This document shows, one piece after another, positions 6,199 through 52,586 of a DNA stretch of 64,000 bases. Made by a program: the position numbers and the translations under genes. The stretch is from the NCBI GenBank assembly GCA_007375735.1, contig VMEW01000007.1, forward strand, positions 1,494-65,493, in the 5' to 3' direction. Position 1 is the first letter of the stretch. Each line of letters opens with the position of its first letter. The notes beneath the pieces were generated by a model that saw only the letters and a program-made list of their open reading frames with translations, searched no databases and had not been told where the DNA came from. The stretch comes from Candidatus Peregrinibacteria bacterium Greene0416_19. GTDB taxonomy: Bacteria; Patescibacteriota; Gracilibacteria; Peribacterales; Peribacteraceae.

Positions 6199-6208
6199 GG
6201 CAGAAAGG

Positions 6209-6240: not shown

Positions 6241-6254
6241 GCCATGCGTGTCAA
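6225..6254 (-). promoter_or_regulatory. Sigma70-like promoter of the csoR-copZ-copA operon
   Basis: The minus strand reads TTGACA (6254..6249), an 18-nt spacer, then TATGGT (6230..6225). The operator palindrome overlaps the spacer and the -10. Confidence 0.5.
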
Positions 6255-6311
6255 TGCCATTTCTCTCGATCGCGATTTGCCCCGTTCCATCGTAGTGGCC
6301 GGAGCCGCGGC

Positions 6312-7175
6312 TTATGAATCGGAATCGAGCAGCACATCGATCACTGTCTTGAAGCTTGCGAACGGTACTGCACCGGAAATTATGCGGTTTTCGTCGGTCT
6401 TCAGATTCACGACGATGTTCCCCGGCGTGCCATTCACTCCGGCGGCACTGCCGCCAGTCATGTCATCCTGTACATGCTTCGCGTACTTGCCGCTGTCGAG
6501 ACAATTCTTGAATTGCGCTTCGTCGAGGCCGAGTTCTTTTGCGAGGGGCGCGAGATTCTCGAGCGGGAATCCCGTGCCACCGGCGACGGTCCGCTCGAAG
6601 ATGGCATCCGTGTATTTCCAGAATGCGTCGTTGCCGCCAAACTCATTTGCGCACTCGGATGCCTCGGCTTCCTTCTGGGCGTTCGCGTGGAAGCTCAAAG
6701 GGAAGTGGCGGTAGACCCAGACAACATCGTCCTTATAGGCATCCATGATCTGCTTCATCGTCGGATGATGCCGCTGGCAGAACGGGCACTCGAAGTCCGA
6801 ATATTCGACGACGGCAACCTTTGCCTTCGTGAAGTCTCCACGGATGTGATCAATCTTTGCACTGATCGGAGGAAGATTGTCTGTCGATGTCGGCTCAGGA
6901 GGTTGTTGGGGAGCCGGTGCTGCCGGGGCTTGAGCGACTTGGGCGGGAGGACTCCCTGCAGATGTGGGAAAGTTTCCCGTGCGCCACTTGCCGATTCCGA
7001 AGCCGACGATCAGTCCCATCAAGCCGAGAGAGACTGTGAACCATGGATTCGACCCGTTCGATGAACTCAGGTCAAGCTGGCTCACCACAGGTGGATTGTT
7101 GGCCGAGGAAGGGATCGATGATCGCTGAGAGCTTCCAGCGTTTTTCTGCGGCGTGTCTTGCCATTGGATTGCCAT
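6312..7175 (-). CDS. DsbA-family thiol:disulfide oxidoreductase, membrane-anchored
   Basis: N-terminal TM segment (WFTVSLGLMGLIVGFGIG), a Pro/Ala linker, and a thioredoxin fold with the active site SDFECPFCQRHHP. Confidence 0.85.
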   Translation of the reverse strand: MAIQWQDTPQKNAGSSQRSSIPSSANNPPVVSQLDLSSSNGSNPWFTVSLGLMGLIVGFGIGKWRTGNFPTSAGSPPAQVAQAPAAPAPQQPPEPTSTDNLPPISAKIDHIRGDFTKAKVAVVEYSDFECPFCQRHHPTMKQIMDAYKDDVVWVYRHFPLSFHANAQKEAEASECANEFGGNDAFWKYTDAIFERTVAGGTGFPLENLAPLAKELGLDEAQFKNCLDSGKYAKHVQDDMTGGSAAGVNGTPGNIVVNLKTDENRIISGAVPFASFKTVIDVLLDSDS

Positions 7176-7196
7176 ACGTGAAAGAAGAAAAGAGGA

Positions 7197-8555
7197 TTAA
7201 AGAACCGTGAAGGAACCGCGCACCATGCCCATCGAGCAGCTGAAAGCGAGCTGTCCGGGATCGGGGGCGTTGAATTCGATGATGTTCTGACCTTGGGTAA
7301 GGGTCTTGATGACGTTCAGCGTAGGGATGACAAGCTGGCTCGTGCAGCCCTGCGCGCCCTCGCCGTCCACAGTCCAGCGGACGGGAATTCCTGCCTTAAT
7401 TGTCAGATTGCGCGGTTCATAACCGTAGCGAGTCACCTTCATGGACACTTCCTGCACGCCATTCGTGACGACTGGAGCCGAACCGACAGCCACGGGCGGG
7501 CCGCTAAAGAATGAAGAGACATTGAGGCCGGCGAGTGCGAATCCACTATTGAAGTTGAAGAAAGCCAACACGAGAACGAGAGCGCCGGAAAACCGCAGGA
7601 ACAAACGCGATGCAGCGCCTTTCGCAGTTGAAGACACCGCGCTCAAACCGATGAGGGATGGGAGGGTACCGAGTGCGAAGACGAGCATCGTGAAAGCTCC
7701 CGTGACGAAGCTGCCGGATGCGAGTGCGACGAGTTGGAGAGACTGTGTAAAACCGCAGGGCAGGAAGAACGTCATGGCACCCAGCGTAGACGGAGCCAAT
7801 GGATGATCACTCTCCGAAAGATTCGCGACCCAGCGCGAGAGCTTCTTCGGCGGTCGGATGGGGAAACTGCCTTTCGGAATGATGTGCAGGATCGTGAGAG
7901 CCAGCCATAGCATGATGAAGGCCACGGCGATGCTCATGTACCCGCTCATCTTCGTCGAGAGCGTGATGGATTGCCCGATCACGCCGACGAGGCCGCCGAG
8001 AATGAAGTACGACACGAGACGGCCGATGTTGAAGTGCAGGAGCGGTTTGAACTTCTGCCATGGCGTCTCGGCCTGATGGATTTCATTGTGCTTCGCTGCA
8101 AGCGTGAGGAGAAGACCACCGGTCACGGCGAGACAACTGCTGGTACCCGCCACGAGGCCGATGACGAAGATGCCGCCAAAGGACAGCGCTCCGGAGGTCG
8201 ATGGCGCGAGCGACACGAGATCGAAGGCCTGAAGGAGCTTGTAGCCTGCAAAAATAATGATGAGCGCGCCGCCGATCTCCATCCATTTTCGCTTATCAGG
8301 AGAGAGTGTTGAGATGGATGGGGCATCGTCATCGACGACGGAATAGCCGGCCTTATGGATGACGGAGGCGATGCGATCCTCGCTGGGGAGGCGGCTGGCA
8401 TCCGCTGTCATGTGAGCGACGCCGGTTCGATGATCGATATGCACATCGACGACCCCGGGCACCACCTTGAGTTTGCGCTCGAGAAGCAGCTCGCAGCTGC
8501 CGCACGTCATTCCTGAGATGCGGATTTCTGCATGGAGATGTTTGGAGTCGGACAT
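7197..8555 (-). CDS. HMA domain / polytopic membrane domain (TauE-SafE or DsbD_2-like) / C-terminal cupredoxin-like domain fusion protein
   Basis: The N-terminus GMTCGSCELLLERKLK is an HMA domain. About 6-7 hydrophobic helices follow. The C-terminal ~95 aa (VTRYGYEPRNLTIKAGIPVRWTV...FSCSMGMVRGSFTVL) looks like a small cupredoxin-type beta sandwich. Confidence 0.8.
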   Translation of the reverse strand: MSDSKHLHAEIRISGMTCGSCELLLERKLKVVPGVVDVHIDHRTGVAHMTADASRLPSEDRIASVIHKAGYSVVDDDAPSISTLSPDKRKWMEIGGALIIIFAGYKLLQAFDLVSLAPSTSGALSFGGIFVIGLVAGTSSCLAVTGGLLLTLAAKHNEIHQAETPWQKFKPLLHFNIGRLVSYFILGGLVGVIGQSITLSTKMSGYMSIAVAFIMLWLALTILHIIPKGSFPIRPPKKLSRWVANLSESDHPLAPSTLGAMTFFLPCGFTQSLQLVALASGSFVTGAFTMLVFALGTLPSLIGLSAVSSTAKGAASRLFLRFSGALVLVLAFFNFNSGFALAGLNVSSFFSGPPVAVGSAPVVTNGVQEVSMKVTRYGYEPRNLTIKAGIPVRWTVDGEGAQGCTSQLVIPTLNVIKTLTQGQNIIEFNAPDPGQLAFSCSMGMVRGSFTVL

Positions 8556-8623
8556 AGACGCATGAGAAGAAAGGGTAAACAGAACGCCGAATATTCATTC
8601 GGCATCAGACGTGTTCATTTCTC

Positions 8624-9034
8624 TCACAGTCTCAAGACGATCGTGTCAGTGTGAATGGCAGTGGGCGGCGCGGTCGCGGGAGGAACGGCAACCGAGGCAG
8701 TCTGAGATGCTGCGGAGATGATGGGGATCGGGTTAGCAGTTCCGATGTGCGGCGCATCGAAGGTTACCGCGCTAGCAGCAGCGTTCTGTGATTGGGAAAA
8801 ACAATGTCCGGCGCATCCTGTCTGTTGCCGCGACTGGTCCCCGTCATTCAGTTGCACTTGTACGCAATGATCGCAGTTGGCAGGAGACATCGGAAACATC
8901 GGCGTCATGACCATTTCCATGTGTACCGCGTACGGCATCGCCGTGTCCTCTGCAAAGGCCATCGGCATCACGCAGAAATTGCCGATGACAACGTGGACGG
9001 CGAAGACAATGCTTACGGGTATTCTCATGCTCAT
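8624..9034 (-). CDS. Secreted Met/His/Cys-rich small protein, possible Cu-binding
   Basis: Signal-like N-terminus, then AMPYAVHMEMVMTPMFPMSPANCDHC and GCAGHC. The context is the last gene of the copper island. Confidence 0.55.
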   Translation of the reverse strand: MSMRIPVSIVFAVHVVIGNFCVMPMAFAEDTAMPYAVHMEMVMTPMFPMSPANCDHCVQVQLNDGDQSRQQTGCAGHCFSQSQNAAASAVTFDAPHIGTANPIPIISAASQTASVAVPPATAPPTAIHTDTIVLRL

Positions 9035-9109: not shown

Positions 9110-9138
9110 TTGGAGAAACAAGGTAAAAGTGCTATAAT
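9110..9138 (+). promoter_or_regulatory. Sigma70 promoter with extended -10 for the giant-protein cluster
   Basis: TTGGAG (9110-9115), 17-nt spacer, TGcTATAAT (-10 at 9133-9138). The first plausible ATG (9149) is only 10 nt after the -10, so the transcript would be leaderless or nearly so. Confidence 0.55.
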
Positions 9139-9148
9139 CATAAGATTT

Positions 9149-9451
9149 ATGCACACGCAAAAAGAAGTGGCGGCCGGCCTGCAGAAGCTCGTATTCCTGA
9201 CGCCCGACGAGGCGGCGGGCATTCTCCGGCGCAGCGGGAATGCACCGCCGGCCGCCATCGACACACTGCTCGCGATCCTCGCGGAAGCGGCGACGGGCCA
9301 GGAGCGATTGCTCATGGAGAAAGTGCATCGGGATCCCGGGTTTGTCGCGCGGTTCAAAGAATTTGCCCGTAGCGTCTTCGACGCCGCCAAGAATCAGGAG
9401 GAAGCGAGCGAGCGCGCGGGCACGGACGCGATCTTTGACGCAGCCCCCTGA
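9149..9451 (+). CDS. Hypothetical protein (100 aa)
   Basis: ORF 9056-9451 trimmed to MHTQKEV because the promoter lies inside the longer version. No recognisable domain. Confidence 0.5.
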   Translation: MHTQKEVAAGLQKLVFLTPDEAAGILRRSGNAPPAAIDTLLAILAEAATGQERLLMEKVHRDPGFVARFKEFARSVFDAAKNQEEASERAGTDAIFDAAP

Positions 9452-9459
9452 TTCCCCTC

Positions 9460-12400
9460 ATGCTGACATACGCATACAAGCGCCGGCGCATCACGGAATT
9501 CGGTGAAGCCAAACGTGTTTTCTTCGAGCCCGGACAGGTGGAGAACGACCTGATGCAGGCGATGGGCGCCGGCAAGCCGTCCCCGCCGGGAGAAACCGGG
9601 AAGGAAAACGTGGACGGCAAAGGCGGCGGGCCGGCTGCTCCTCCGGAGAAAGCCGACCCGAAGGCGGTGGAACAGCAGCAGGTCAAGAGTTTGCTCGATG
9701 ATGTGCAGCGGCGGCAGGAGCAGGCGGCACAACTCAAGCTGCCCGCACCACTGACAAAATCCATCTTCGACAACTACGCGCGCTACCTGGTGGCCTCCGC
9801 GCCAATCTACGACAAAAACCGGAACCGGGTCATTGAGGATGCCACCGCAGAGAAGCAGGAGAGCGAGTTCGCCGCCTACAAGAAGGCGATGCTGGAGAAG
9901 ATCGATGCGGTGCTCAAAGAAGTCTCGGGCGGCGCCGAGCAGGCCAAGAAGGAACAGAAGAAGCAGGAGGAAGAGCAGATGAAATCAGTGGATGAGGAGC
10001 TCAAGGCGATTCAAGAGAAAGTCGATCGCGGCGAACTGGAGAAGATCGCCCCCACGCCCGATGCGCTGCAGGCCGCGTACCAGCGGTACGAACAACGGAC
10101 GGCGGCGCTCGAGACGTACGGGAAAAACCTCGGAACGCAGGTGACGGCGGTTGAGCGCGTGCAGAAGGCGTACGCGAAGGAAATGGAGGGATCGACGCTC
10201 AACGCGGTCGGCGCGACCGGCTTCGTGGCGACCGGAGCGCTCGCGGGATCGTTCATCCCCGGTGTGGGCACCGCCATCGGCGCCGGTGTGGGGCTGCTGA
10301 GCTACATGGCCGTGCGGGCCGGCAGTTTCTTCGTCAACCGTGCCGAGCGCCAGAAGCGAGCAGCGGACATCCAGCAGAAGATCGATGTGGTCAAAGGCCA
10401 TCTTGAGGAGGGGCAGAAGCATGTCACCGCCGAACTCGGCGTCTTTGACGAAGGCGGCGATGCCATCCTGAAGACGACGACGCAGATCCGCGAGAACACG
10501 TACGCTCAAACAGACGAAGCGAAGAAAGGCCTCGAGAGCCAGAAAGAAAAAATCAGTCAGGACCTGGCAGCGACGCAGGCGAAAACATCCGAAGTTCTGA
10601 CGCAGGAGGAACAATTGAGCGAAACGCAGGAGAAAATTGCAGAGCGGCAGCGTGAGGTCACGCAGAAACAGCAAGAACTTAAGAGCGCAGCCGCCGATGC
10701 CGCCAGGAAAGCTGCGACACCCAACGAAGTCGTATCAACTGCAGCCGATGGAAATGCCGGATCGCAGAAGGCAGTCGATGTGCAGGCACAACTGCAGCAA
10801 GCGGCACAAGATGCGGAGGCACTCGAGAAGCAGCTGGGAACTGCCTACCAAGAAGTGGTCGGACAACAGATGATTCTTGGCACAGGACGCCAGGAACTGG
10901 AGCAGCATGCGTCGCTGCAGGAAGTGGGAATGCAGAAGCTTGACCAACAAAAGGAACTGCTCGGACAGACGCTCGAAGGCGAGATGCAGCATCTCGACGC
11001 GCATCACAAGGAAGTGCAGGACGGCATACTAGGATCGACGCTCCGCCATCACGCGGTCGCCACGCAGGTGGAGGGTCAGTACCACTCGATCAAGGACGTG
11101 AAGGTGGAGGAGCCGGGCTTCGTGCAGCACGTGATCGAGAACACCTTCGGCGGCATCAAGGACGGCCTCAACGGCCTGGCCAAACCGCTCAACGGCATCC
11201 CCGGCCTGAGCGTCGTGGGCGGCGTGCTGGAAGGCGCTGGCGAAATGGTCAACGGCATCGGCACTATGATCGCTCACCCGGTACAGACAGTGGAGGGGCT
11301 GAGCGCGCTCGCGGGTTTGAACAAGGACGTGAGCGCGTCCGACGCCTGGAAGGAGATGGGCAAAGCGCTGATCTCGTACGAGGATTTTTCGAAAGGAGAT
11401 TACGGCAAGGGAATAGGCAAGATCGTCTTCAACATCGCCACTACCGCCACCGGAGCGGGCGCGGCGATGAAGGGGGCGCAGGTGGCAACCATCTTGTACC
11501 GCACCTCCATGGTCGGGAAGGCCGGCGCGCTCGCGGCATCCAAGGCGTTCGTGAAGGCGACTGCGGTCGGCGTCGGTGTCGGCACGAAAGAACTTGCGGT
11601 CGGCGCGCTGAAGGTACCGGGAGAGTTCGTAAAAGACGCCGGAAAGATGATCACAACCCCGTACCGGCTCGGCCGCCGCGCGGCCATCGGCGACGCGCGG
11701 CACCTTGGAGAAGTTGCTGACAACCTCACCAGGACGGGAAGTATCCTCAAGGGAAAGATTGATGAGCTGGACATCGGGAAGCACATCACTGCAATCGCGG
11801 ACAGTCCGGTTCCGCTCGCGGACCTGACAAGCGAGCAACTGACTGCGCTGGGGAAGAACAGCGAAGAGCTCGTCAGGCTGGGCATCAAGGATGCAAAATC
11901 CATCTCCAAGTTCCTGGAACTCAAGAAGATGGTCGGTGAGCAGGAGGGGCTGCGCCGCACCATCGCTGCGACTGAACGAGCGAAGGATATTGCGGAGCTG
12001 CCGAAGGATGTTCGTTCCAAACTTTCGCGTACCGAAAATGAGCTCAACTCACTCGAGCAAAAAGCCGCCGCGGCGGAGCGGCAGGCGCAACGCACCGGCG
12101 AAGCCGGCGCGCCGGAGCGGATGCAGGCGGCGCGTGCTCCCATGGATGCCAAGATGGAGGCGCTTCTGCAGGATCTGCAGAATACAGCCGGTGACTTGGG
12201 CAAGGAATTTTGCAAGGAACGGGCCGGTACGGTGCTCCTCCATGGTGATAGCGGCGTGGTTGCCATCGGCCCCGATGGATTCCTGCAAGTGGTGAAGGCG
12301 ACGGAACTCGACGCATTCCTTGCGAAGGTCGCCGGTCCAGGCGCCCGCTTTGCCGACAAGACAGCGGCGCGCTGGCATGTGGCCGAGCGGATAACGGGCC

Positions 12401-15400
12401 GCAAGCTCACTCCTCGTCAGCAGGATGCCGTGCTGCGCGCGCATGAGGTGGGCTCCGCGCGCGGGGCAAAGATCCACGAGTACACTCCTGCCGAGATCGG
12501 CGAGAAGGCTCGCATCCTGGACGAAGCCGGCTTCTCCAAAGCCGAGCGGCGGGCGCTGATGGAGCGCGGGGTGTGCGGGGAGGGGGTAGGAGCAGAAGCT
12601 GCATCCGAAGCGCAATATTATGTCAACAAGGGGCGGGAATTAGCGGATGCCGTGGAAAACGGGAGTGAGCCGCTCTACACAGTGGACAGTTTTGACGAGT
12701 ATGGACATGTATTTACCCGAGATCTGCCGCTTGATGTCATACGGGATACTGAGCTTGATGCGATTAGAGATCCTGCATTGCGGAGACTGGCAAAAGAACG
12801 CCGTCAGGCTGAGAATGTCAGATTCAGGCAGAAGCAAAAAGACGGCGCAATCGCCGACGCGCAGATCGAGCATCTGGATGAGATGAGGGAGGTGAGTCGG
12901 GAGGCGTATGAGAGAGCGAGGGCGAAACTGAATGAGAAACAATCCGCAGCCCGCAAGCCGCGATCGAATCCGAGCCCGGAAGCCGCCGCCAAGCTGCCTT
13001 TTGAGGACGCAATTTCGGGAGGAAACATCGATGATGCTCTGATCCTCAAGTTTGACGACGCGTTGGCCGCACGTTATGCGAAGGCCAGCCCTGAATTGTT
13101 GGAGAATGTGTATGAAACAGCAGAGGCATTGTACTTCATCAAAGATGAAGAAGCTCTTTCAACAGCGTACTGGGCTATTCAAACTCAACTGCAAAAACAC
13201 TACGAAACACAGTTCACAAATCAGCTGCTTACAGAAGCACATTTGCAAGACATAGAGTCGCTGCGTGCGTGGTTTCGGCAGAAGAAGGATGCGTGTGATT
13301 CTTTCAGTGCCGTGGATGTGCTGAAATCAAGCGTCATCGATGACATTGAGCGTAGGTTTCTTTCGGACATTGATTCCAACGTCCCCGTCCGTTCTCCGTC
13401 GTCGGAACAGATCGCGCTGCGTGAGAGGTGGAACAAGCTGCCACAGGCTCAACGGGACGGGATACAGTACGTGAAAGAACAGGGCTGGAAGAGGAACGAG
13501 AAACTGATCATCGAAGTCACGGAGGGCAAGAAAGAGACAGTGACCCTGAATGGAGTGACGCGGGACGGGCGAGTGGAACTGATCAGGGAGGACGGTAGCC
13601 GCGCGCTCTTCGATCGAGATGGTACGCACTCTTATGACAATAACAAGAAATATGAATATCTGCCTGCCCGGGTTAATGAACAGAAGGATCTGGTCGATGC
13701 CATGTCCGTTGCTCAGAAGGAAGGGATCCAGGCCGCCCGCGAGTATCGACATTCGAAGGGAAGTGTCGTGAACTTTCGCGACACGAAAACCCATGAGATC
13801 TCATCGGCGACATTCGAAGGGGTGATGCCTGACGGACGGTGGCGCTTTCGGAGGGAAAACGGCGAGCGATTTGCTCACGATTATCTGAAAGGCTCGGACG
13901 AAGTTCTACCCTCCACACCGAATAAGTCCGTCCCCGCTGATGTTGCACCGCCTCCGGCGGTTTCCAAGAAACCAAGTTTGAAGCCCAGTCCGGCGTCACG
14001 CTTGCCTGACACTGACCTCAACAATGCGTCGCATTACGGCGAATCGCTTGCCGAACAAGTGCGCAGTTCCGAGTATCAAGGTACCACGATTACTATCGAG
14101 CCGAACGGGGATTTCACCATCCTTCCGGTGGAAGTGGCGACAGCGGAGGAACTGCATTTTTATTTTAATAATGTTGAGAAAGATCCGGCGGTCGGCAAAG
14201 CGATCGAGGATGCCAAGAAACCGGCTCTCGCTGCTGATCGCGCAGCGGCGAGAAAGGCGTTTAACGCCAAACGAACGGAACTGAAAGCCCGCGACCGGGC
14301 AGAGTTCGCTAATGAGAGTGGAGCCACTGAGGTGCGAATGGAAGCCACGGTGGCTCCTACCACGGCGCCACGGCAACCCGCTTCTCCGTACGTGGCTGAG
14401 CGGAAACAGCTTGCGGATGTGCGATCGCAGCTGGTCCAAAAGCTCGATAATGCCACGGACAACAAGACGCGCGCTCTCCTGGAGCAGTCGCTTCGTGATG
14501 TTGAAAACAAGATCGACGCCTCCTTCGCCACCCAGCGAACCGAGCTGATCAAGCGATGCCAGGATACATCGCTGCCCGTCCCCGAGCACGAGAAGGTATT
14601 GCTGCAGCTCAAACAGCATTGCGCCAAGATGGAAATCCGCAGCGAGTTGTACTCGACGTTCAAACTGGAGCCGCAACTCTCTCCTATCTCTCTCAAGAAA
14701 ACATCGCTTCTGCGTGGGGAGTATCTCAAGAGCGGATACGAGGTTCTGGGCAGGGGAAAGACGCGGTATCCGGGGAAAACCGGCGTGATCGAGGTGGAGG
14801 AACTGCTCATCGGGAAGTGGGACAAGGCGAAAAACGAGTATCTGACTTTGCAGGTTGCCGCAAAAGACGTGGCGACGTGGGAAATGAACCTCTATAAGAC
14901 AATCCGCGGCAAATCGGACAGCGAGCTCGTCAGTCGCTTCCACGAATTGAAAAAGATGAAGAAGAAGGAACTCTCGCCGGAATTGACAGAGGAGATTCGC
15001 GTGTGCGATGCCGAGCTGCGTCAGCGCGGCGGCATCGGGAAGGTGGAGGAGAATATCAATAACCAGAAAACGCTGGATGCCTGGCGGGAGCACAAATCGA
15101 AGACCGCTGGGGCGAAAACAGGCGCTGCCGCAGAGATATTTAGCTTGCAACGCTTTGACAAACTATTGGCCAAATACACCGGTTACATCAATGATCCGAA
15201 AGGGATGGAGCGCATCGGCGCCGACATCGCTGTTCTTGAGAGGAGTGGAGCCGATGCTGGAAAACTAGGCGAGCTCATGGAGCTTCGCAATCTGATGCAG
15301 GTAAGGCCAAAGGTGAAGCAGCCGCCACCGCTCAGCAAATGGCGACCGGGTGACAGCATTCAAGGTCGCACGCTCCGCGCCGCAGATGGCAGCGAACTGC

Positions 15401-16563
15401 CGGCACTGGACTACAAGGTAGTGAGCATCAAAGAAGGCAATCCGCCGACGGTGGTGCTGGAGGCAACCAGTGGAGCCAGCTATGGCATGGTGGGTAAGCA
15501 GGTGGAGGTGAAAGTTGCAGATTTGAATGAAATGGCGAAATCGAAGCCCCCACCGAAGCCCCCGATTGGCACCGCAGGCGCAAAGAATCCTGCTCCAGAT
15601 GCACCTCCCGCGGCCGTACCAAGAGCAAAGAATGCACCTCCCGATACGGTCCCTGCGAAGCTGCCGAAGGACGTACTGGCGGAGGAAGCGGCGCGGGTCG
15701 CCGCGCTGCGGCGCAGCGCGGAAGCGAAGGCTGCGGGCGTCGATGTCACAGAAATGGTCCATAAACGCGATGAACTGTACAAGCAACTTGAAGAGCTTGA
15801 GAAAAAATATCCGGATTTCGACAGCTACACGCCCGAGTATTATAGAAAATTCAGTGAGTCGAGTGAACCAGTCAAACTTCTCGATCGGAAGATCGTCCGG
15901 CAGCAGTGCGAGGCGATGACGACCGAAGAACTGGAGGCGCTCATCACCCAGGAGACGCAAGGAACCAAGTTCGAAGCATTGGCCGACAAAACCCTGTGGA
16001 ATTACGACCGTTCCGAGATCATGGGGGACCTGCTTGGGGAAAAGCGGCTGCAAGAGCGGTATCCTCTCGGCCTTGCCGAGGAACGCAAGAAATACTTCAA
16101 CGAATGCGTGTCCCAGTGCCGGCGCATGGGCGATCGTCAATTGATGGAAAAGTACGTCGCGCTGATCAGCAGAAAATCGAAATCAGAGGATGACATCCTC
16201 ACTCAACTCGCAATGGAGACACGGTTGTGGGTGAAAGGCCGTCCGCCGGATCTCGTCGTGGGCCGCTTCCAGGCGATGACCAAGCAGGGATACCAGCTCG
16301 CCGATCTGCGCAATGCGGACGCCGCCAAATTGGAATCACTCGGTTGCAGGGCCGGTGAGACCGTGAAGGTGCGGGCAGAGGACGGTCAGTTTCGGACTCA
16401 CAGGATTGAAGGAATCGAAGGTAATTTTGTGAGCATGGAAGACATCTTTCTTGGGATCAATCTGAGCGACACCCCCGTATGGGTGAAGCCAGGCAAGGAC
16501 GTGCCGGAAATTGTCATCGATATGAATGGGCCGCTGACGAAAGGAGTGGACGACATGGGATAA
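9460..16563 (+). CDS. Giant protein (2367 aa) with long coiled coils, Gly-zipper hydrophobic segments and repeated small beta-rich modules; function unknown
   Basis: Uninterrupted 7.1-kb ORF with coding-like composition. Contains GATGFVATGALAGSFIPGVGTAIGAGVGLLSY, Q/E/K-rich heptad-like stretches, tandem modules at 13438-13890, and PPKPP/AP-rich linkers. Confidence 0.85.
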   Translation: MLTYAYKRRRITEFGEAKRVFFEPGQVENDLMQAMGAGKPSPPGETGKENVDGKGGGPAAPPEKADPKAVEQQQVKSLLDDVQRRQEQAAQLKLPAPLTKSIFDNYARYLVASAPIYDKNRNRVIEDATAEKQESEFAAYKKAMLEKIDAVLKEVSGGAEQAKKEQKKQEEEQMKSVDEELKAIQEKVDRGELEKIAPTPDALQAAYQRYEQRTAALETYGKNLGTQVTAVERVQKAYAKEMEGSTLNAVGATGFVATGALAGSFIPGVGTAIGAGVGLLSYMAVRAGSFFVNRAERQKRAADIQQKIDVVKGHLEEGQKHVTAELGVFDEGGDAILKTTTQIRENTYAQTDEAKKGLESQKEKISQDLAATQAKTSEVLTQEEQLSETQEKIAERQREVTQKQQELKSAAADAARKAATPNEVVSTAADGNAGSQKAVDVQAQLQQAAQDAEALEKQLGTAYQEVVGQQMILGTGRQELEQHASLQEVGMQKLDQQKELLGQTLEGEMQHLDAHHKEVQDGILGSTLRHHAVATQVEGQYHSIKDVKVEEPGFVQHVIENTFGGIKDGLNGLAKPLNGIPGLSVVGGVLEGAGEMVNGIGTMIAHPVQTVEGLSALAGLNKDVSASDAWKEMGKALISYEDFSKGDYGKGIGKIVFNIATTATGAGAAMKGAQVATILYRTSMVGKAGALAASKAFVKATAVGVGVGTKELAVGALKVPGEFVKDAGKMITTPYRLGRRAAIGDARHLGEVADNLTRTGSILKGKIDELDIGKHITAIADSPVPLADLTSEQLTALGKNSEELVRLGIKDAKSISKFLELKKMVGEQEGLRRTIAATERAKDIAELPKDVRSKLSRTENELNSLEQKAAAAERQAQRTGEAGAPERMQAARAPMDAKMEALLQDLQNTAGDLGKEFCKERAGTVLLHGDSGVVAIGPDGFLQVVKATELDAFLAKVAGPGARFADKTAARWHVAERITGRKLTPRQQDAVLRAHEVGSARGAKIHEYTPAEIGEKARILDEAGFSKAERRALMERGVCGEGVGAEAASEAQYYVNKGRELADAVENGSEPLYTVDSFDEYGHVFTRDLPLDVIRDTELDAIRDPALRRLAKERRQAENVRFRQKQKDGAIADAQIEHLDEMREVSREAYERARAKLNEKQSAARKPRSNPSPEAAAKLPFEDAISGGNIDDALILKFDDALAARYAKASPELLENVYETAEALYFIKDEEALSTAYWAIQTQLQKHYETQFTNQLLTEAHLQDIESLRAWFRQKKDACDSFSAVDVLKSSVIDDIERRFLSDIDSNVPVRSPSSEQIALRERWNKLPQAQRDGIQYVKEQGWKRNEKLIIEVTEGKKETVTLNGVTRDGRVELIREDGSRALFDRDGTHSYDNNKKYEYLPARVNEQKDLVDAMSVAQKEGIQAAREYRHSKGSVVNFRDTKTHEISSATFEGVMPDGRWRFRRENGERFAHDYLKGSDEVLPSTPNKSVPADVAPPPAVSKKPSLKPSPASRLPDTDLNNASHYGESLAEQVRSSEYQGTTITIEPNGDFTILPVEVATAEELHFYFNNVEKDPAVGKAIEDAKKPALAADRAAARKAFNAKRTELKARDRAEFANESGATEVRMEATVAPTTAPRQPASPYVAERKQLADVRSQLVQKLDNATDNKTRALLEQSLRDVENKIDASFATQRTELIKRCQDTSLPVPEHEKVLLQLKQHCAKMEIRSELYSTFKLEPQLSPISLKKTSLLRGEYLKSGYEVLGRGKTRYPGKTGVIEVEELLIGKWDKAKNEYLTLQVAAKDVATWEMNLYKTIRGKSDSELVSRFHELKKMKKKELSPELTEEIRVCDAELRQRGGIGKVEENINNQKTLDAWREHKSKTAGAKTGAAAEIFSLQRFDKLLAKYTGYINDPKGMERIGADIAVLERSGADAGKLGELMELRNLMQVRPKVKQPPPLSKWRPGDSIQGRTLRAADGSELPALDYKVVSIKEGNPPTVVLEATSGASYGMVGKQVEVKVADLNEMAKSKPPPKPPIGTAGAKNPAPDAPPAAVPRAKNAPPDTVPAKLPKDVLAEEAARVAALRRSAEAKAAGVDVTEMVHKRDELYKQLEELEKKYPDFDSYTPEYYRKFSESSEPVKLLDRKIVRQQCEAMTTEELEALITQETQGTKFEALADKTLWNYDRSEIMGDLLGEKRLQERYPLGLAEERKKYFNECVSQCRRMGDRQLMEKYVALISRKSKSEDDILTQLAMETRLWVKGRPPDLVVGRFQAMTKQGYQLADLRNADAAKLESLGCRAGETVKVRAEDGQFRTHRIEGIEGNFVSMEDIFLGINLSDTPVWVKPGKDVPEIVIDMNGPLTKGVDDMG

Positions 16564-16674
16564 GAGAAACATTCATGAACGAAAGCCGATCTTCGAGGAG
16601 CGTCCAGAGGGTAAAATAACCACTTTCCGCTGCCGGAAGGGTCGATTGTGGCATAGCTCAAAACGCTCTTTTCT

Positions 16675-16682
16675 GCTATAAT
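16675..16682 (+). promoter_or_regulatory. Possible extended -10 element (TGCTATAAT)
   Basis: The same TGCTATAAT string as at 9130-9138, located 22 nt upstream of the ATG at 16705. No good -35 is present. Confidence 0.35.
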
Positions 16683-16704
16683 TACTGGATTTACAGCCCA
16701 AATA

Positions 16705-17115
16705 ATGCCTGAACCACAAACATCCACAAATCAAGATCCGGCAGGGCAGAATCCGGCGTCAGCCGGCAGCCAGCAGGGCGGCCAGACTGCCGTTCCCATG
16801 CTCCCAGAGGTATTGGAAGGCGGCGCTCTCTATGACCAGATCATGACCGCGATAGAACCGGAACTGACGTCGACGGTGTATCCGACACTGGCGGAAAAAT
16901 ATAAAGACGAGACCCCGGAGCAGGCGAAGGTGCGGGCGGAGCGGTACGCGAAGGCAATGGAGGAGTATAAGAAACAACTCCAGAAATACGGGGCTGATTT
17001 TGGCGGAAAGGTGCGTACCTTCCAGCACGGTGTGCGCAAATCCATGGAAGCCGACGATCGGAACCGCGAAACCAGTAACATGTCCGGATTGGAAGATGCC
17101 ATCTCCAATTTGTAG
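16705..17115 (+). CDS. Hypothetical protein (136 aa), low-complexity N-terminus followed by a helical region
   Basis: ORF with coding-like composition. No recognisable domain. Confidence 0.6.
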   Translation: MPEPQTSTNQDPAGQNPASAGSQQGGQTAVPMLPEVLEGGALYDQIMTAIEPELTSTVYPTLAEKYKDETPEQAKVRAERYAKAMEEYKKQLQKYGADFGGKVRTFQHGVRKSMEADDRNRETSNMSGLEDAISNL

Positions 17116-17185
17116 AGCCATGCACACGCTGTTCCAACACAGGCGTTTCTCCCCCAGCAAAGAGCAGAGGCTGTGTTTTCACAGC

Positions 17186-19672
17186 ATGGAGGCTGGAAAC
17201 GCGCAGACAAACGAAGCGCCCAAAGAAGCCGGCGCGCGTGCGGCCGAGAAGCTTCTGAATGCCGATGGCAAAATGGACAAACAGGAACTGCAGAAGATGG
17301 TGGATGATCTCAAAGCCACCACCCGTGATATGGCGGAAAGCAACAAGAATCAGCTGAAGACACTCAGGGACTGGCTCAGCGCCCAGGGCACACAGGCGGT
17401 GCAGGACTACGCGCAGAGCAAGGGGCTACAATCCGCAGATCAACTCACAAAACAAGACCGCGATGCCTTCGTGAAAGGGTTTGCCGAGAAGCTCCACATC
17501 AGCGCCGCCGGCCAGGGCATGAGCATCGACTCTCTCGGTTCCAGTGTGGTTCTCCGTGTGCAGGAGCGTACCGCTGCGGAGAAGCAACAACACAACAAGC
17601 AAGCGGAGCAAAAGCAGTACAACGATGCCATCGCGAAATATGATGGAATGCCCCCCGAGGCGAAGGAGGCAATGAAAGTCATCATAAAGGATTTGGATAG
17701 GCAGACTGTGTATCTTCTCGTCATCCAAAATGGCGACATGCCTGCGTTACAACTCCAGACTGCAGCGCGCGTCCTCGGCTCTCTGCCGGACAAAGCGAAA
17801 ATCATGCAGGTCATCACCACGGATTTCGGCGGTCGGCTCTCCATGTTCGATCCGGCCAAGCAGGGCGAAACCCAAGCAATCTACAACGGCCTCAGAAAGC
17901 AGGCGGCGGGCATCGTGGATCGGACGAATCCACAGTTCACCATCTTGAGCCGCAAAATCAATCTGTTGAACAAGTTGGGTCTTGCGCAGGGGCAGGATGC
18001 CCGGAGTGAGCAGCAGAGCCGGCTGACGCAGAATGATCTCGCGACTCCTGAGGATAAAGAGAAAATGGCCAAATCCTTTATCGATCGTGTGCAAGGTCTA
18101 CCAGATGGCAAGTCTCTTACTGAGATGTACAACCGCCAGCTGCCGCAAATGAAGGCGCAGTTCGATGGACTGCTCAAGCAGGTGCCGGAGGGGAAGCTGG
18201 AGGCGGTGGGCAAAGTGGTACTCGTACTGGGAAATCAGCAGCAGTTCACTGAACGGGAGATGAGTACGGCTATTCAGGAGACGTTGGGTGCCAAACCAAC
18301 AGTGGATGCCAAGCTCCGTCTGCGCGTGGATCTGGCCAAGAAGTTCCTTGATGCCCAGGGGCTCAAGAGTGATGCACTCCAGTCCTACGTCGATGCAGCG
18401 TCCAGCCAGTCCACCGATATGGCCCGCAATCCGAACACGCAAGCTCTGGCATCGCAGGCACAAACGCAGAATCTCTCCCGCTTCGAACAGGCGCAGATCC
18501 GGCTCATGCAGTCACAGGCGATCCTGAATCATCCGCGAGCCAGCGGATTGCAGAAAATTGGAGCGATGGCGACTATGCTCTACACGCAGGTGGAGATGTT
18601 TATGAACGGGAAAAAGCAGGAGTACTTCCAGCGGCCGCAAGCGGCGGCCCCAGAAGCTCCAAAGGCGGGCGAGCCGGGAAAAGAGGAGACCAAGCCGGAG
18701 ACCCAGCTGACCAAATTGAAAGGCGAGCAGCAGAAGCTCCAGAAGGAAGTGAAGGATTGGACCGATTATAAAACTCAATTGGAGGCCAGAAAGGCGGGCG
18801 AGCCAAAGCCGAACGGGGAGCAGATGAAACAAATCGAAGAAGGCATCGCGAAGGCGACGCAGAAGATCAAGGAGAAGACGACGGCGATCAAGAGTGTGGA
18901 GGAGATGATGAAGGCGACGGAGAAATCGGAAGCGGAGGTGAAGGGGCGAAAGGAGGAAGTGGGAGAGATGGTGAAAAAATTGGAGGAGTATAAAACAAAG
19001 TTGGTATCTGAGAAAAAGGATGTGAAGGACGTCGATAAGGCAATCGAGTCTCTAAACAAACTCAAGGGGAAGGAGTCGGTCTCTCAAGAAGAGTTCGACA
19101 AGGCAAAGAGTGAAATAAAGCCGGTGCTTGATAAGCAAAATGCCGCACAGAAAAAGAACGAGGATGAGAAGAAGCGGGGTGACAACCGTGATAAAGCCAC
19201 TGAGAACATGGAGAAGAATTCGGAGTATGGGAAGGCCGCACACATATTTGCTTTAGCATTGGCATTTAACGACATAAGCAGGATTGCGAATGTGAACAAG
19301 GATGTTGCCATCACTCAGTTAGCCGCCGACGTGCCGCCGTCTGGTGTTGCCGGCAACGTGGCCGATCAGATAGTCCACTACTTCCAAAATGATTCGGGAA
19401 CATGGACGAGCAATGCGCCCAATAAAACATTCGGTCTGGAAATTTCTCACGGCGGCGACTTAGAGGAGAATGACGGAAGCAACTGGTTCTACGATACGGA
19501 TTTAATTTCGAATTTCGCGACGAAGGTCAAGGACAGCCCGGAGGTGGCCATCCAGGAGCTCATGGCTATTCCGGATTCTGGCCTCAATGGCACAGCCAAG
19601 GTTCGGCTTGCCAAAATAAAGCAGAGCTTGAGCAAGCACATGGCTGACTTGGGCATCAAGAAGGAAGGCTGA
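17186..19672 (+). CDS. Coiled-coil K/E/Q-rich protein (~830 aa) with a globular C-terminal ~150 aa; function unknown
   Basis: Track ORF 17000-19672 overlaps the previous gene. In-frame ATGs at 17120 and 17186 are the plausible starts, and which one is used is uncertain. Confidence 0.75.
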   Translation: MEAGNAQTNEAPKEAGARAAEKLLNADGKMDKQELQKMVDDLKATTRDMAESNKNQLKTLRDWLSAQGTQAVQDYAQSKGLQSADQLTKQDRDAFVKGFAEKLHISAAGQGMSIDSLGSSVVLRVQERTAAEKQQHNKQAEQKQYNDAIAKYDGMPPEAKEAMKVIIKDLDRQTVYLLVIQNGDMPALQLQTAARVLGSLPDKAKIMQVITTDFGGRLSMFDPAKQGETQAIYNGLRKQAAGIVDRTNPQFTILSRKINLLNKLGLAQGQDARSEQQSRLTQNDLATPEDKEKMAKSFIDRVQGLPDGKSLTEMYNRQLPQMKAQFDGLLKQVPEGKLEAVGKVVLVLGNQQQFTEREMSTAIQETLGAKPTVDAKLRLRVDLAKKFLDAQGLKSDALQSYVDAASSQSTDMARNPNTQALASQAQTQNLSRFEQAQIRLMQSQAILNHPRASGLQKIGAMATMLYTQVEMFMNGKKQEYFQRPQAAAPEAPKAGEPGKEETKPETQLTKLKGEQQKLQKEVKDWTDYKTQLEARKAGEPKPNGEQMKQIEEGIAKATQKIKEKTTAIKSVEEMMKATEKSEAEVKGRKEEVGEMVKKLEEYKTKLVSEKKDVKDVDKAIESLNKLKGKESVSQEEFDKAKSEIKPVLDKQNAAQKKNEDEKKRGDNRDKATENMEKNSEYGKAAHIFALALAFNDISRIANVNKDVAITQLAADVPPSGVAGNVADQIVHYFQNDSGTWTSNAPNKTFGLEISHGGDLEENDGSNWFYDTDLISNFATKVKDSPEVAIQELMAIPDSGLNGTAKVRLAKIKQSLSKHMADLGIKKEG

Positions 19673-20111: not shown

Positions 20112-21026
20112 CTACGCTTCGTTCCGCTTCTCCCCCTCCTTCCTCGCCTCCTCCCTCTTCCTCATTTTCTCATACTCAATCTGCTGCTTCTTTCCCCGCG
20201 TATCCGCCTCCGCCTGCATCTTGCGGTTCACTGCGTCATTCTCCAGTTTCTGACGTCGCGTGATCTCCTCTGTGTCCAGCTTGGTGCGCTCCTCGGTGGC
20301 CCATTTCTCGGTGGAGGCGATCTTCTGGTGCATCTGCATCTCCAGCTGCTGCTTGCGGGCCTGGACCTCAGGCGTGGAGATTCCCGGTAGCATCGAATAC
20401 TGATTGCGATACTCGCTGTCGATCATGAATTTCTTCTGCAGTTCCTCGGTGTAGATCTTGTTCCGCCGCTCGCGGATGTCGGCCTGCATCAGGTCCTTCT
20501 GCACGATCAGGTCTTTCTCAACCTGTTCCTTACTGCGGAGCTCATCGCTATCCGCGCGGTTACGATGGAGCATGGCATCCGTCTCCACTTGGCTGATTTT
20601 CTGCTTCACTTCCTGCTCGCGCGCGATCCGCTTCTTTTCTTGCTGGATCTGCGTGGCCGCTTGGGCATGTACGTCCTGCAGGTACTCAGCCTGCTTTTTC
20701 TTCTGCTCGTCTTCCAGGCGCTCCTTCTCCGCCATCATGCGGATCTGCTGTTCCTTCTCCAGGCGCTCCTTCTCCTTTCGTTCTTTCTCGGTTTTCCTTT
20801 TCTTGCGGAATGCCTCCGCCTCCTTCTTCCGCTCGATCTCCGCGCGTTCCTCCTCTTGTAGTGCCAGGAAACTCCGCTTGGCACCCGCCTCTTGTTCCGT
20901 CTGGCGCTTCGCTTTGGCGTCGGCGATGCGCTTTTCCTCGGCCTTCATGCCCTCGAGGCTCTTTTTCTGGAATTCCTCAAGGATTTTCTTCTTGGCCTTT
21001 GGGTCGGTGGGATCGGCTGGGGGCAT
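20112..21026 (-). CDS. Highly charged K/E/R/Q-rich coiled-coil protein (304 aa)
   Basis: Track ORF trimmed to MPPADPTDPKAKKK, because the longer version overlaps the yafQ-like toxin, which ends at 21029. Confidence 0.6.
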   Translation of the reverse strand: MPPADPTDPKAKKKILEEFQKKSLEGMKAEEKRIADAKAKRQTEQEAGAKRSFLALQEEERAEIERKKEAEAFRKKRKTEKERKEKERLEKEQQIRMMAEKERLEDEQKKKQAEYLQDVHAQAATQIQQEKKRIAREQEVKQKISQVETDAMLHRNRADSDELRSKEQVEKDLIVQKDLMQADIRERRNKIYTEELQKKFMIDSEYRNQYSMLPGISTPEVQARKQQLEMQMHQKIASTEKWATEERTKLDTEEITRRQKLENDAVNRKMQAEADTRGKKQQIEYEKMRKREEARKEGEKRNEA

Positions 21027-21326: not shown

Positions 21327-21644
21327 TCATTGATCAGACAATTGCCCAAACCGTTTCTCCGCGCGCTTTCTCCATCCTTTTCCCAAAATATCATCCATCA
21401 GCTCTTCGGCAGAATTGAACCTCTTCCCATGCTCCAGAGCCCATTTTTCTTCCCGGAGCATCCTCCGCTCCTGAGAAGGGGTGAATCCGTTCACCGTGCG
21501 GATCTCGAAGGGAATGCTGCCGGTGATGGTGATCTGCCGGAGATAGAGGTTTATGGCGCTGCTCAGGTCGAGTCCCATTTCTTTGAGCATTTTCTGGGCC
21601 TTCTGCTTCAACTTCGCATCGGTGCGGACGTGGATGACGCTCAT
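21327..21644 (-). CDS. dinJ: Type II antitoxin, DinJ/RelB family
   Basis: IHVRTDAKLKQKAQKMLKEMGLDLSSAINLYLRQI is a ribbon-helix-helix DinJ-type N-terminus. The gene lies immediately upstream of the toxin. Confidence 0.8.
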   Translation of the reverse strand: MSVIHVRTDAKLKQKAQKMLKEMGLDLSSAINLYLRQITITGSIPFEIRTVNGFTPSQERRMLREEKWALEHGKRFNSAEELMDDILGKGWRKRAEKRFGQLSDQ

Positions 21645-52571: not shown

Positions 52572-52586
52572 CGTACAAGGATTCAG

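What the first reader, a model, noticed from the sequence alone, without database searches (positions are those of the whole stretch)
9110..19672. Four-gene cluster built around a 2367-aa giant protein and an ~830-aa coiled-coil protein, with no recognisable enzymatic domain
Seen in sequence:
- A strong promoter (TTGGAG-N17-TGcTATAAT) precedes a 100-aa ORF, a 7.1-kb ORF, a 136-aa ORF with its own TGCTATAAT element, and a 2.5-kb ORF.
- The giant protein alternates Q/E/K-rich heptad-like regions, Gly-zipper hydrophobic segments, Pro-rich linkers (PPKPPIGTAGAKNPAPDAPPAAVPRAKNAPPDTVPAKLP) and at least five short beta-rich modules.
- The second large protein is about 80% coiled coil, with a globular C-terminal ~150 aa.
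- No signal peptide is evident on either large protein.

Inference: this may be a large filamentous or membrane-inserting structural or effector complex with two small accessory (chaperone or adaptor) proteins. About 16% of the window is devoted to it.
Basis: partly seen in the sequence, partly recalled or inferred. Interest (0 to 1): 0.7.

Follow-up and report, generated by a model that had tools for sequence, protein, structure and literature searches.

The report
Escort-plus-tagged-fibre gene pair beside orphan giant
In a tiny, probably symbiotic groundwater-type bacterium (Peribacteria), the cluster is a previously undescribed, lineage-wide gene pair (a small helical protein plus a fast-evolving long protein with a conserved 20-residue N-terminal tag), and next to it lies a one-off 2367-residue mosaic protein; none of them matches any known protein family.

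Summary
All four ORFs, both TGCTATAAT promoters, the Gly-zipper segments, the Pro-rich linker and the beta modules are present, and the 7.1-kb ORF is identical on three contigs. The window is chromosomal DNA of a Peribacteria/Peregrinibacteria (CPR) bacterium.

The cluster is not one conserved four-gene unit. Genes 3 and 4 (136 aa and 850 aa) are the local copy of a module confined to Peregrinibacteria:
- an extended -10 promoter;
- a conserved small protein (AlphaFold: disordered tail plus a 64-residue helix);
- 0-20 nt downstream, a 400-1100-aa A/E/K/P-rich protein that diverges 10-30 times faster than its neighbours and keeps only an N-terminal tag (...E-x-R-L-I-F).

The core tag motif (E-x-R plus two hydrophobic residues) follows the small gene at 48 of 61 loci, against a 2.5% background.

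Gene 1 and the giant are lineage-specific. The giant shares only two short modules with two proteins among 1.84 billion representatives.

Pfam, NCBIfam, PHROGs, PDB sequences, Foldseek, and the phage, plasmid and viral collections gave no meaningful hit. PADLOC gave only coiled-coil matches.

My best reading (about 0.4) is an escort protein plus a tag-targeted, hypervariable envelope or host-contact fibre, with the giant as a membrane-inserting relative by analogy. The main rival is a cytoplasmic scaffold. Function is inferred, not shown.

The parts
9110..9138 (+). Promoter 1: TTGGAG-N17-TATAAT with extended -10 (TGCTATAAT at 9130-9138)
   Evidence: This is one of only two TGCTATAAT sites in the window (expected 0.09).
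9149..9451 (+). Gene 1: 100-aa Ala-rich orphan protein. Its stop lies 8 nt before the giant's ATG.
   Evidence: No Pfam, NCBIfam, PHROG or PADLOC hit. Not related to the gene-3 family. No tblastn hit in any fetched locus.
9460..16563 (+). Giant 2367-aa mosaic protein
   Evidence: No homologue by word-indexed search. An exhaustive HMMER search of aa 1168-2367 gave only two weak hits.
9460..9537 (+). Giant aa 1-26, MLTYAYKRRRITEFGEAKRVFFEPGQ: a leader-like N-terminus with one extra residue in the E-x-R core, followed by a P/G-rich linker
   Evidence: It matches a relaxed regex that hits about 0.5% of unrelated ORFs. It does not score with the leader HMM. Status: suggestive only.
10198..10335 (+). 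Giant aa 247-292: Gly-zipper-type hydrophobic segment (GATGFVATGALAGSFIPGVGTAIGAGVGLLS...)
   Evidence: Hydropathy 1.5-1.6 over 15-19-aa windows. GxxxG counts.
11116..11619 (+). Giant aa about 553-720: Gly/Ala-rich amphipathic region
   Evidence: Similar regions precede the shared beta module in P0060 and P0061.
12415..12579 (+). Giant aa 986-1040: helical module (AHxV...RILxxAGFS...GVCG) shared with P0061 aa 424-474
   Evidence: 38% identity, pairwise E 4e-7. tblastn coordinates.
15316..15564 (+). Giant aa 1953-2035: small beta module (W-x-x-G-D-x-I-x-G...LDYxV...VxVADLN) shared with P0060 and P0061; probably an SH3/Tudor/Sm-like barrel
   Evidence: 45% identity to P0061 and 63% to P0060. AlphaFold gives 4-5 strands at pLDDT 62-74. 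Foldseek best hits are Sm, Tudor and the BirA C-terminal domain, all non-significant.
15544..15669 (+).
16674..16682 (+). Promoter 2: extended -10 TGCTATAAT in front of gene 3
   Evidence: TGnTAnAAT lies upstream of the gene-3 homologue in 25 of 61 loci, against a 2% background.
16705..17115 (+). Gene 3: 136-aa member of a Peregrinibacteria-restricted small-protein family, the putative escort
   Evidence: The search found 58 protein clusters at E<=0.001 (57 relatives plus the window's own protein), and every cluster that carries an organism name is Peregrinibacteria or Peribacteria. Family HMM E 3.8e-44. AlphaFold with a 57-sequence alignment: pLDDT 86.8, aa 1-38 disordered, helices 39-50 and 59-65, and one long helix 71-134. 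No fold or sequence match in the PDB.
17120..19672 (+). Gene 4: 850-aa K/A/Q/E-rich protein, the hypervariable partner. Its ATG lies 4 nt after the gene-3 stop.
   Evidence: Only a self hit in the homology search. No Pfam, NCBIfam or PDB hit.
17120..17179 (+). Gene 4 aa 1-20, MHTLFQHRRFSPSKEQRLCF: the family's N-terminal leader/tag
   Evidence: Best hit of the leader HMM among 1100 six-frame segments of the window (12.6 bits, E 0.007). Alignment of 39 leaders.
20112..21026 (-). Context gene: 304-aa protein rich in E, K and R (42% of residues), convergent with gene 4 and conserved next to aspS in Peribacteria
   Evidence: It may or may not belong functionally to the module; it is also present in L007, which lacks the pair.

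Best explanation
Shown:
- The region holds two adjacent operons on the chromosome of a Peribacteria (CPR) bacterium. Each has an identical extended -10 element and consists of a small ORF followed 4-8 nt later by a large ORF.
- Operon 2 (genes 3 and 4) is the local copy of a module confined to Peregrinibacteria. Its small protein is conserved and consists of a disordered tail plus one roughly 95-Å helix. The gene that follows encodes a long A/E/K/P-rich protein that evolves very fast.
- The only family-wide feature of that long protein is a roughly 20-residue N-terminal tag (M-x-[FYH]-H..P-x-F...[KR]-E-x-R-L-[IL]-[FW]) followed by a Pro/Ala/Glu linker.

Inferred:
- The small protein acts as a dedicated escort (chaperone or targeting factor) that recognises the tag or the adjoining helical region.
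- The large protein is delivered to the cell envelope or surface of this probably episymbiotic cell, where its variable distal part contacts a partner such as a host cell, prey or phage. That would explain the rapid divergence and the replacement of the C-terminal half between close relatives.
- Operon 1 (gene 1 and the giant) is a lineage-specific addition built on the same plan. The giant is a mosaic of charged helices, glycine-zipper segments able to insert into a membrane, Pro-rich spacers and SH3-like beta barrels. It most likely forms a membrane-anchored or membrane-inserting fibre or effector.
For: Organism: AspRS is 71-75% identical and DnaE 62-70% identical to Peribacteria/Peregrinibacteria MAGs.

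Module:
- The gene-3 family comprises 58 clusters among 5.8 billion proteins, and every cluster carrying an organism name is Peregrinibacteria.
- The ancestral order is dnaN-mfd-gene3-gene4...aspS-nrdR-sua5-dnaE. The pair also occurs in other genomic contexts and as tandem duplicates.
- The core of the tag (M...E-x-R-[LIFPV]-[LIVCAF]) follows gene 3 at 48 of 61 distinct loci, against 2.5% of random windows.
- Window gene 4 is the top leader-HMM hit in the window.
- An extended -10 is conserved upstream in 25 of 61 loci, against 2% background.

Evolutionary rate:
- Between L009 and L010, the partner protein has dN 0.36 against 0.01-0.04 for dnaN, mfd and aspS. dN/dS is 0.30-0.44 against 0.006-0.04. 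The small protein is at 0.09.
- In the same pair the C-terminal half of the partner cannot be aligned at DNA level, although the surrounding 21 kb is 80-85% identical.

Parallel build of operon 1:
- It has the same unique 9-mer promoter element and the same small-plus-large layout.
- The giant's N-terminus is tag-like and is followed by a P/G linker.

Giant's relatives:
- P0060 and P0061 share the order Gly-zipper, Pro-rich linker, beta module.
- P0061 lies next to CAP and SLH envelope proteins.

Literature: Peribacteria are inferred to be symbiotic and to invest heavily in large surface proteins (PMC4736985).
Against: - None of the 45 partner proteins examined, nor the giant, has a Sec or Tat signal peptide, lipobox, LPxTG, SLH domain or other wall-binding domain. 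Export therefore rests wholly on an uncharacterised tag.
- No transporter gene is linked to the module.
- dN/dS stays below 1, so relaxed constraint on low-complexity helical sequence could explain much of the divergence.
- The module sits among housekeeping genes at a conserved position, as a cytoplasmic structural gene might.
- The giant fails the leader HMM and gene 1 is unrelated to gene 3. Treating operon 1 as a version of the module is analogy only.
- The AlphaFold model of the giant is mostly low confidence (mean pLDDT 46).
Confidence: 0.4

Rival explanations
1. Cytoplasmic scaffold or cytoskeleton-like proteins. The long charged helical proteins would form intracellular filaments or condensates, for example for division, shape or nucleoid organisation. 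The N-terminal tag would be a docking peptide for a conserved cellular partner and the small protein a co-assembly factor. Fast divergence would simply reflect weak constraint on coiled-coil or low-complexity sequence.
For: - No export or anchoring signal in any member.
- The module holds a conserved chromosomal position between mfd and aspS among housekeeping genes.
- dN/dS is below 1.
- The only Pfam hits among the 45 partners are weak matches to coiled-coil and filament-type families such as Filament, BAR_4 and MAP65.
- A neighbouring, conserved protein with more than 40% E/K/R residues looks like a single-alpha-helix protein.
Against: - Abrupt loss of all DNA similarity in the C-terminal half between genomes that are otherwise 80-85% identical, together with length variation of 414-1092 aa and tandem duplication, is unusual for a housekeeping scaffold.
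- The module is missing from the syntenic position in one Peribacteria genome (L007).
- The giant's Gly-zipper segments and Pro-rich spacers point towards a membrane or the envelope.
Confidence: 0.3
2. Polymorphic toxin or effector system. The conserved N-terminal tag plus the small partner would act as a delivery module, and the variable C-termini would be interchangeable toxin or effector domains, by analogy with Lap-LXG or chaperone-effector pairs. The giant's glycine zippers would act as a pore-forming or translocation element.
For: - C-terminal replacement between close relatives.
- The small helical partner is always encoded upstream.
- Glycine-zipper segments in the giant, P0060 and P0061.
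- P0061 ends in a region with a C...H...D-like motif (GQCGPATEF...GHGFAYV...YLVDPT), seen by eye only.
Against: - No toxin, LXG, WXG100 or PT-TG domain in the giant, in gene 4 or in the 45 partners.
- No recurrent small immunity-like gene lies downstream; the next gene is a conserved charged protein on the opposite strand.
- The small protein is a single long helix, not a WXG hairpin.
- No T7SS, T6SS or T3SS gene occurs in the 64 kb.
Confidence: 0.12
3. Remnant of a prophage or mobile element, with the giant acting as a tape-measure-like protein and the small ORFs as its chaperones.
For: Tape-measure proteins are long and helical, carry Gly-rich hydrophobic segments and are preceded by small chaperone genes. 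Gene 4 has one weak PHROG 'tail protein' hit (E 0.005, in its coiled-coil region).
Against: - The giant has no PHROG hit.
- No match in 50,697 phage or 72,556 plasmid records, nor in IMG/VR for the giant or the gene-3 family.
- No capsid, portal, terminase, integrase or tail gene nearby.
- Genes 3 and 4 sit at a conserved chromosomal position across the class.
Confidence: 0.03

Closest known systems
Lap-LXG (T7SSb) and other escort/chaperone-substrate pairs (T3SS chaperone-effector, EspG-PE/PPE)
   Same: A small helical protein is encoded directly upstream of a large protein. That large protein has a conserved N-terminal region and a variable remainder. The host has a monoderm-type envelope.
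   Different: No LXG or WXG100 domain. The small protein is one long helix rather than a hairpin. The tag is only about 20 residues. No T7SS or T3SS gene was seen. No toxin domain or immunity gene was found.
Hypervariable fibrillar surface proteins of Gram-positive bacteria (M protein, pneumococcal PspA/PspC)
   Same: A/E/K-rich helical rods with Pro-rich regions, extreme sequence divergence between close strains, and strong promoters.
   Different: Those proteins carry Sec (YSIRK) signal peptides and LPxTG or choline-binding anchors. None of these is present here.
Large extracellular proteins of Ca. Peribacter riflensis (Anantharaman et al. 2016, PMC4736985)
   Same: Same lineage, large size, strain variability, and a proposed role in attachment.
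   Different: Those proteins are Cys-rich (about 7%) and mostly carry signal peptides. The giant and gene 4 have 0.4% and 0.1% Cys and no signal peptide.
Phage tape-measure proteins; chlamydial Inc proteins and T3SS translocators; Zorya ZorA tail
   Same: Long helical proteins with Gly-rich hydrophobic segments. PADLOC ZorA matches the giant at aa 130-514 (E 4.6e-6).
   Different: The ZorA match covers only its coiled-coil tail, and there is no MotA-like domain. There is no phage context. No T3SS was seen. The hydrophobic segment lies at aa 247-292 and is only moderately hydrophobic.

Membership tests
Peregrinibacteria 'small helix protein + tagged hypervariable protein' module (defined here) | Member of the conserved small-protein family (YDxIMxxIEPEL...KYKDETPE...RYxKAFxEY) | tested here: met
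   Gene 3 scores E 3.8e-44 against the family HMM. Profile search.
Peregrinibacteria 'small helix protein + tagged hypervariable protein' module (defined here) | A large ORF on the same strand starting within about 20 nt of the small gene's stop, carrying the N-terminal E-x-R-L-I-F leader | tested here: met
   Gene 4 starts 4 nt after the gene-3 stop. Leader HMM gives 12.6 bits, the best of 1100 window segments. The core of the leader (M...E-x-R-[LIFPV]-[LIVCAF]) follows the small gene at 48 of 61 loci.
Peregrinibacteria 'small helix protein + tagged hypervariable protein' module (defined here) | Do the giant and gene 1 form a second copy of the module? | tested here: inconclusive
   Gene 1 is not homologous to gene 3. 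The giant fails the leader HMM but matches a relaxed motif found in about 0.5% of unrelated ORFs. It also shares the promoter 9-mer and the gene layout.
T7SSb LXG toxin / WXG100 / Lap partners | LXG or WXG100 domain; helix-turn-helix hairpin with WxG | tested here: not met
   No Pfam or NCBIfam hit. The AlphaFold model of gene 3 is a single 64-residue helix with no hairpin.
T7SSb LXG toxin / WXG100 / Lap partners | EssC-type FtsK/SpoIIIE ATPase in the genome | not testable with these tools
   Only 64 kb of the genome plus flanks was available. None was seen in the window.
Phage tail tape-measure protein with chaperones | Similarity to TMP families; neighbouring tail or head genes; occurrence in viral genomes | tested here: not met
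   The giant has no PHROG hit. Neighbours are copper-resistance and housekeeping genes. No hit in the phage, IMG/VR or plasmid collections.
Sec/sortase-dependent surface proteins (including the Cys-rich Peribacteria exoproteins) | N-terminal signal peptide; LPxTG or SLH anchor; high Cys content | tested here: not met
   Maximum N-terminal hydropathy is 0.14. There is no LPxTG. Cys content is 0.1-0.4%. No SLH domain by Pfam.
RTX / T1SS substrates | C-terminal GGxGxD nonapeptide repeats | tested here: not met
   The motif does not occur in any of the four proteins.
Zorya ZorA / Druantia DruC (anti-phage defence) | MotA/ExbB-like membrane domain (ZorA); full-length family match with partner genes | tested here: not met
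   The hits cover only coiled-coil parts (ZorA profile 349-634 of 699; DruC 200-369 of 626). No partner genes are present.
Polymorphic toxin systems | Recognisable C-terminal toxin domain and an adjacent immunity gene | tested here: not met
   None of the 45 partners nor the window proteins has a toxin domain. No recurrent small gene lies downstream on the same strand. Variable C-termini are present.

The most novel reading that the evidence does not exclude
The E-x-R-L-I-F N-terminal tag and its dedicated small helical partner would define a previously unrecognised protein-targeting or export route in CPR bacteria. Signal-peptide-less, hypervariable fibres, including a 2367-aa membrane-inserting giant, would be delivered by it to the symbiont-host interface.
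Probability: 0.22. Interest if true: 0.8.

Novelty: new variant of a known kind. Interest (0 to 1): 0.58.

Why it matters
CPR bacteria make up a large share of bacterial diversity. They are thought to live attached to other cells, yet the molecules at that interface are almost unknown, and most candidates so far are Sec-dependent giant proteins.

A lineage-wide gene pair would be a concrete, testable handle on how Peribacteria build or target host-contact structures. Its features are a strong promoter, a conserved escort-like protein and a short conserved N-terminal tag on otherwise hypervariable proteins.

If the proteins turn out to be cytoplasmic, the pair would instead mark a new bacterial scaffold family. 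Either way the tag gives a simple search key for finding more members and co-occurring machinery.

Tried and rejected
- Word-indexed homology searches with the giant and with gene 4 found nothing but self. The candidate lists were capped at 8000, so weak relatives may have been missed.
- A GTDB genome scan with the giant found nothing.
- Pfam, NCBIfam and PHROGs on all four proteins gave nothing usable, and PADLOC gave only coiled-coil matches.
- PDB sequence searches gave nothing.
- Foldseek with the gene-3 model gave a best E of 3. With the giant's C-terminal half, only non-significant Sm, Tudor and SH3-like hits appeared.
- Gene 1 as a paralogue of gene 3: rejected.
- A gene-3-like domain inside the giant: rejected.
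- Internal repeats in the giant found nothing, by self-BLAST or by an HMM of the shared beta module.
- Paralogous modules elsewhere in the window: none.
- A double-glycine (PCAT) leader, a Tat motif, a prepilin signal and a beta-clamp-binding motif were each considered for the tag. I rejected them by inspecting the 39 aligned leaders: the spacing to Gly varies, no hydrophobic h-region follows, and the residues do not fit the QL[SD]LF pattern.
- One literature search timed out. A second, on giant genes in Patescibacteria, returned nothing relevant.

Full report
**1. What is in the sequence**

The + strand carries four ORFs:
- 9149-9451, 100 aa ('gene 1');
- 9460-16563, 2367 aa ('giant');
- 16705-17115, 136 aa ('gene 3');
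- 17120-19672, 850 aa ('gene 4').

Gene calls on public assemblies that hold the identical sequence give the same four genes.

The giant's exact product is called on three contigs (231 kb ENA ERZ27284380, 17 kb Logan SRR8863439, and one of 50-200 kb). The long ORF is therefore unlikely to be an assembly accident.

A TTGGAG-N17-TATAAT promoter with an extended -10 lies at 9110-9138, and a second TGCTATAAT lies at 16674-16682. That 9-mer occurs only at these two places in the 64 kb, where 0.09 occurrences are expected.

Each small ORF ends 4-8 nt before the next ATG. The region therefore reads as two similarly built operons.

The claim that gene 4 is about 80% coiled coil is not supported by a crude heptad scan: 0.20 of residues against 0.16 in shuffles.

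**2. The organism**

The flanks are chromosomal. Upstream lies a copper-resistance cluster. Downstream lie aspS, nrdR, sua5, dnaE, and murB/murG/ftsW.

AspRS is 71-75% identical and DnaE 62-70% identical to MAGs labelled Peribacteria, Peregrinibacteria or Patescibacteria. The window therefore comes from a CPR bacterium of the class Peribacteria. No species-level relative is present in GTDB.

**3. Genes 3 and 4 are a conserved, lineage-restricted module**

tblastn of the cluster proteins against the syntenic loci of eight Peribacteria genomes detected only gene 3. Next to every hit lies a 414-943-aa ORF on the same strand.

A profile of the small protein found 58 clusters among 5.8 billion proteins. 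Every cluster carrying an organism name is Peregrinibacteria, including Ca. Peribacter riflensis.

Contexts fetched from NCBI, ENA and JGI show the ancestral order dnaN-mfd-gene3-gene4-(variable)-charged 300-aa protein(-)-aspS-nrdR-sua5-dnaE. A second context lies next to rpoC, with two copies of the pair.

A JGI metagenome scan added 53 loci.

Across all loci the downstream proteins are A/E/K/P-rich, mostly lack hydrophobic segments, and are mutually unalignable except within subgroups. Nearly all of them begin with the same short leader: M-x-[FYH]-H..P-x-F...[KR]-E-x-R-L-[IL]-[FW], followed by a Pro/Ala/Glu stretch.

The core of that leader (M...E-x-R-[LIFPV]-[LIVCAF]) follows the small gene at 48 of 61 distinct loci, against 2.5% of random windows.

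An HMM built from 38 non-window leaders picks gene 4 (MHTLFQHRRFSPSKEQRLCF) as the best of 1100 six-frame segments of the window (12.6 bits, E 0.007).

An extended -10 (TGnTAnAAT) precedes the small gene in 25 of 61 loci, against 2% background.

**4. Structure and evolutionary rate**

AlphaFold with a 57-sequence alignment models gene 3 at pLDDT 86.8. The model has a disordered first 38 residues, two short helices and one 64-residue helix. Neither Foldseek nor a profile search finds anything in the PDB.

| Comparison L009 vs L010 | dN | dN/dS |
|---|---|---|
| dnaN, mfd, aspS | 0.01-0.04 | 0.006-0.044 |
| small protein | 0.06 | 0.09 |
| partner protein | 0.36 | 0.30 (alignable N-terminal half) to 0.44 (full length) |

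The two loci align at 80-85% DNA identity over 21 kb. The exception is the C-terminal half of the partner gene, which does not align at all.

The module thus combines a constrained small protein and tag with an unconstrained or diversifying body. Pfam finds only weak coiled-coil-type hits in 45 partners.

**5. Gene 1 and the giant**

No relative carries them at the syntenic position. In the window the mfd/dnaN side is replaced by gene 1, the giant and the copper cluster.

Gene 1 is unrelated to gene 3 and has no hit in any fetched locus.

An exhaustive HMMER search of the giant's aa 1168-2367 against 1.84 billion representatives gave two hits, both at E about 6e-5:
- P0060 is cut by the contig end on all five contigs that carry it.
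- P0061 (1033 aa) lies in a MAG, beside CAP and SLH proteins inside a ribosomal-protein region.

The shared parts are a beta module (giant aa 1953-2035; 45-63% identity) and a helical module (aa 986-1040; 38% identity, E 4e-7). Both relatives also have Gly-zipper-like segments and a Pro-rich linker ahead of the beta module.

AlphaFold on the giant's C-terminal 1200 aa is poor overall (mean pLDDT 46). It does place 4-5-stranded modules at aa 1348-1384 (pLDDT 70-84) and aa 1966-2018 (pLDDT 62-74). Foldseek's best hits for these are non-significant and are Sm, Tudor and BirA-C (SH3-like) barrels.

The giant's N-terminus (MLTYAYKRRRITEFGEAKRVFFEPG, then a P/G linker) looks like a leader with one extra residue. 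It matches a relaxed motif that hits about 0.5% of unrelated ORFs but fails the HMM. I treat its link to the module as suggestive only.

**6. Known systems excluded**

- No hit in PHROGs for the giant. No hit in phage, plasmid or IMG/VR collections.
- No LXG, WXG, RTX, LPxTG or SLH features, and no signal peptide.
- PADLOC's ZorA and DruC hits cover only coiled-coil regions.
- The large extracellular proteins described for Ca. P. riflensis are Cys-rich and mostly carry signal peptides (PMC4736985). These proteins are neither.

**7. Interpretation**

Established:
- a Peregrinibacteria-specific module made of a promoter, a small helical protein and a tag-bearing hypervariable protein;
- beside it, an orphan giant mosaic with membrane-active-looking segments and SH3-like barrels.

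Inferred: the small protein escorts or targets the tagged protein, and the variable part acts at the cell envelope or the host interface. My confidence in this reading is about 0.4.

The main rival, at about 0.3, is a cytoplasmic scaffold whose sequence drifts quickly. It fits the complete lack of export and anchor signals and the housekeeping neighbourhood.

A polymorphic-toxin reading (about 0.12) lacks toxin domains and immunity genes. A phage remnant (about 0.03) is essentially excluded.

**8. Novelty and score**

The gene pair and its tag are not in Pfam, NCBIfam, PHROGs or the PDB, and they are not discussed in the one genomic paper on this class that I read.

In logic the pair resembles known escort-substrate pairs and hypervariable fibrillar surface proteins, but it meets none of their defining features. 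I rate it a new variant of a known kind.

I set interest at 0.58. It is a concrete, searchable handle on CPR cell-surface or scaffold biology, but its function is entirely inferred.

Noticed in passing
window 1-9034 (- strand): Copper-handling cluster. It contains a 1310-aa P-type Cu ATPase with partial multicopper-oxidase domains at its C-terminus (1675-5607), an HMA chaperone, a CsoR-type repressor, DsbA, a DsbD/HMA/cupredoxin fusion (7197-8555), and a Met/His-rich 136-aa protein with a signal peptide (8624-9034). The synteny break relative to other Peribacteria falls exactly between this cluster and gene 3.
   Followed up: partly
window 20112-21026 (-): A 304-aa protein with 42% E+K+R and no heptad signal (single-alpha-helix-like). 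It is conserved next to aspS in all Peribacteria loci examined, including L007, which lacks the gene 3-gene 4 pair.
   Followed up: partly
window 21327-21644 (-): A RelB-type antitoxin gene (105 aa) between the charged protein and aspS, with no obvious toxin partner.
   Followed up: no
window 23636-25063, 31021-32619, 32616-35258, 37160-40195 (all -): Four more large ORFs (475, 532, 880 and 1011 aa) with no Pfam hit, in the high-GC part of the window (0.63-0.68).
   Followed up: no
L008 about 17879-18496; L047 from 8834: Leader-bearing ORFs not placed directly after a small-protein gene. One is a 205-aa ORF starting ...NREHRLLFF in L008. The other is a 376-aa leader protein just upstream of the small gene in L047. 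The tag may therefore occur outside the canonical pair.
   Followed up: no
L095 10001-13102 (P0061): The 1033-aa distant relative of the giant ends in a region with a Cys...His...Asp-like motif (GQCGPATEF / GHGFAYV / YLVDPT). This could be a papain- or transglutaminase-like catalytic domain. It has no Pfam or PDB sequence hit.
   Followed up: partly
window 9149-9158 and 17120-17129: Gene 1 and gene 4 both begin with the same 10 nt, ATGCACACGC (M-H-T). This may be coincidence or a shared translation-initiation context.
   Followed up: no
window 52485-55949 (+): A lipase-maturation-factor (LMF1)-like protein (574 aa) followed by an SLH-domain protein (570 aa). A tRNA gene lies at 52310-52381 (-).
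   Followed up: no
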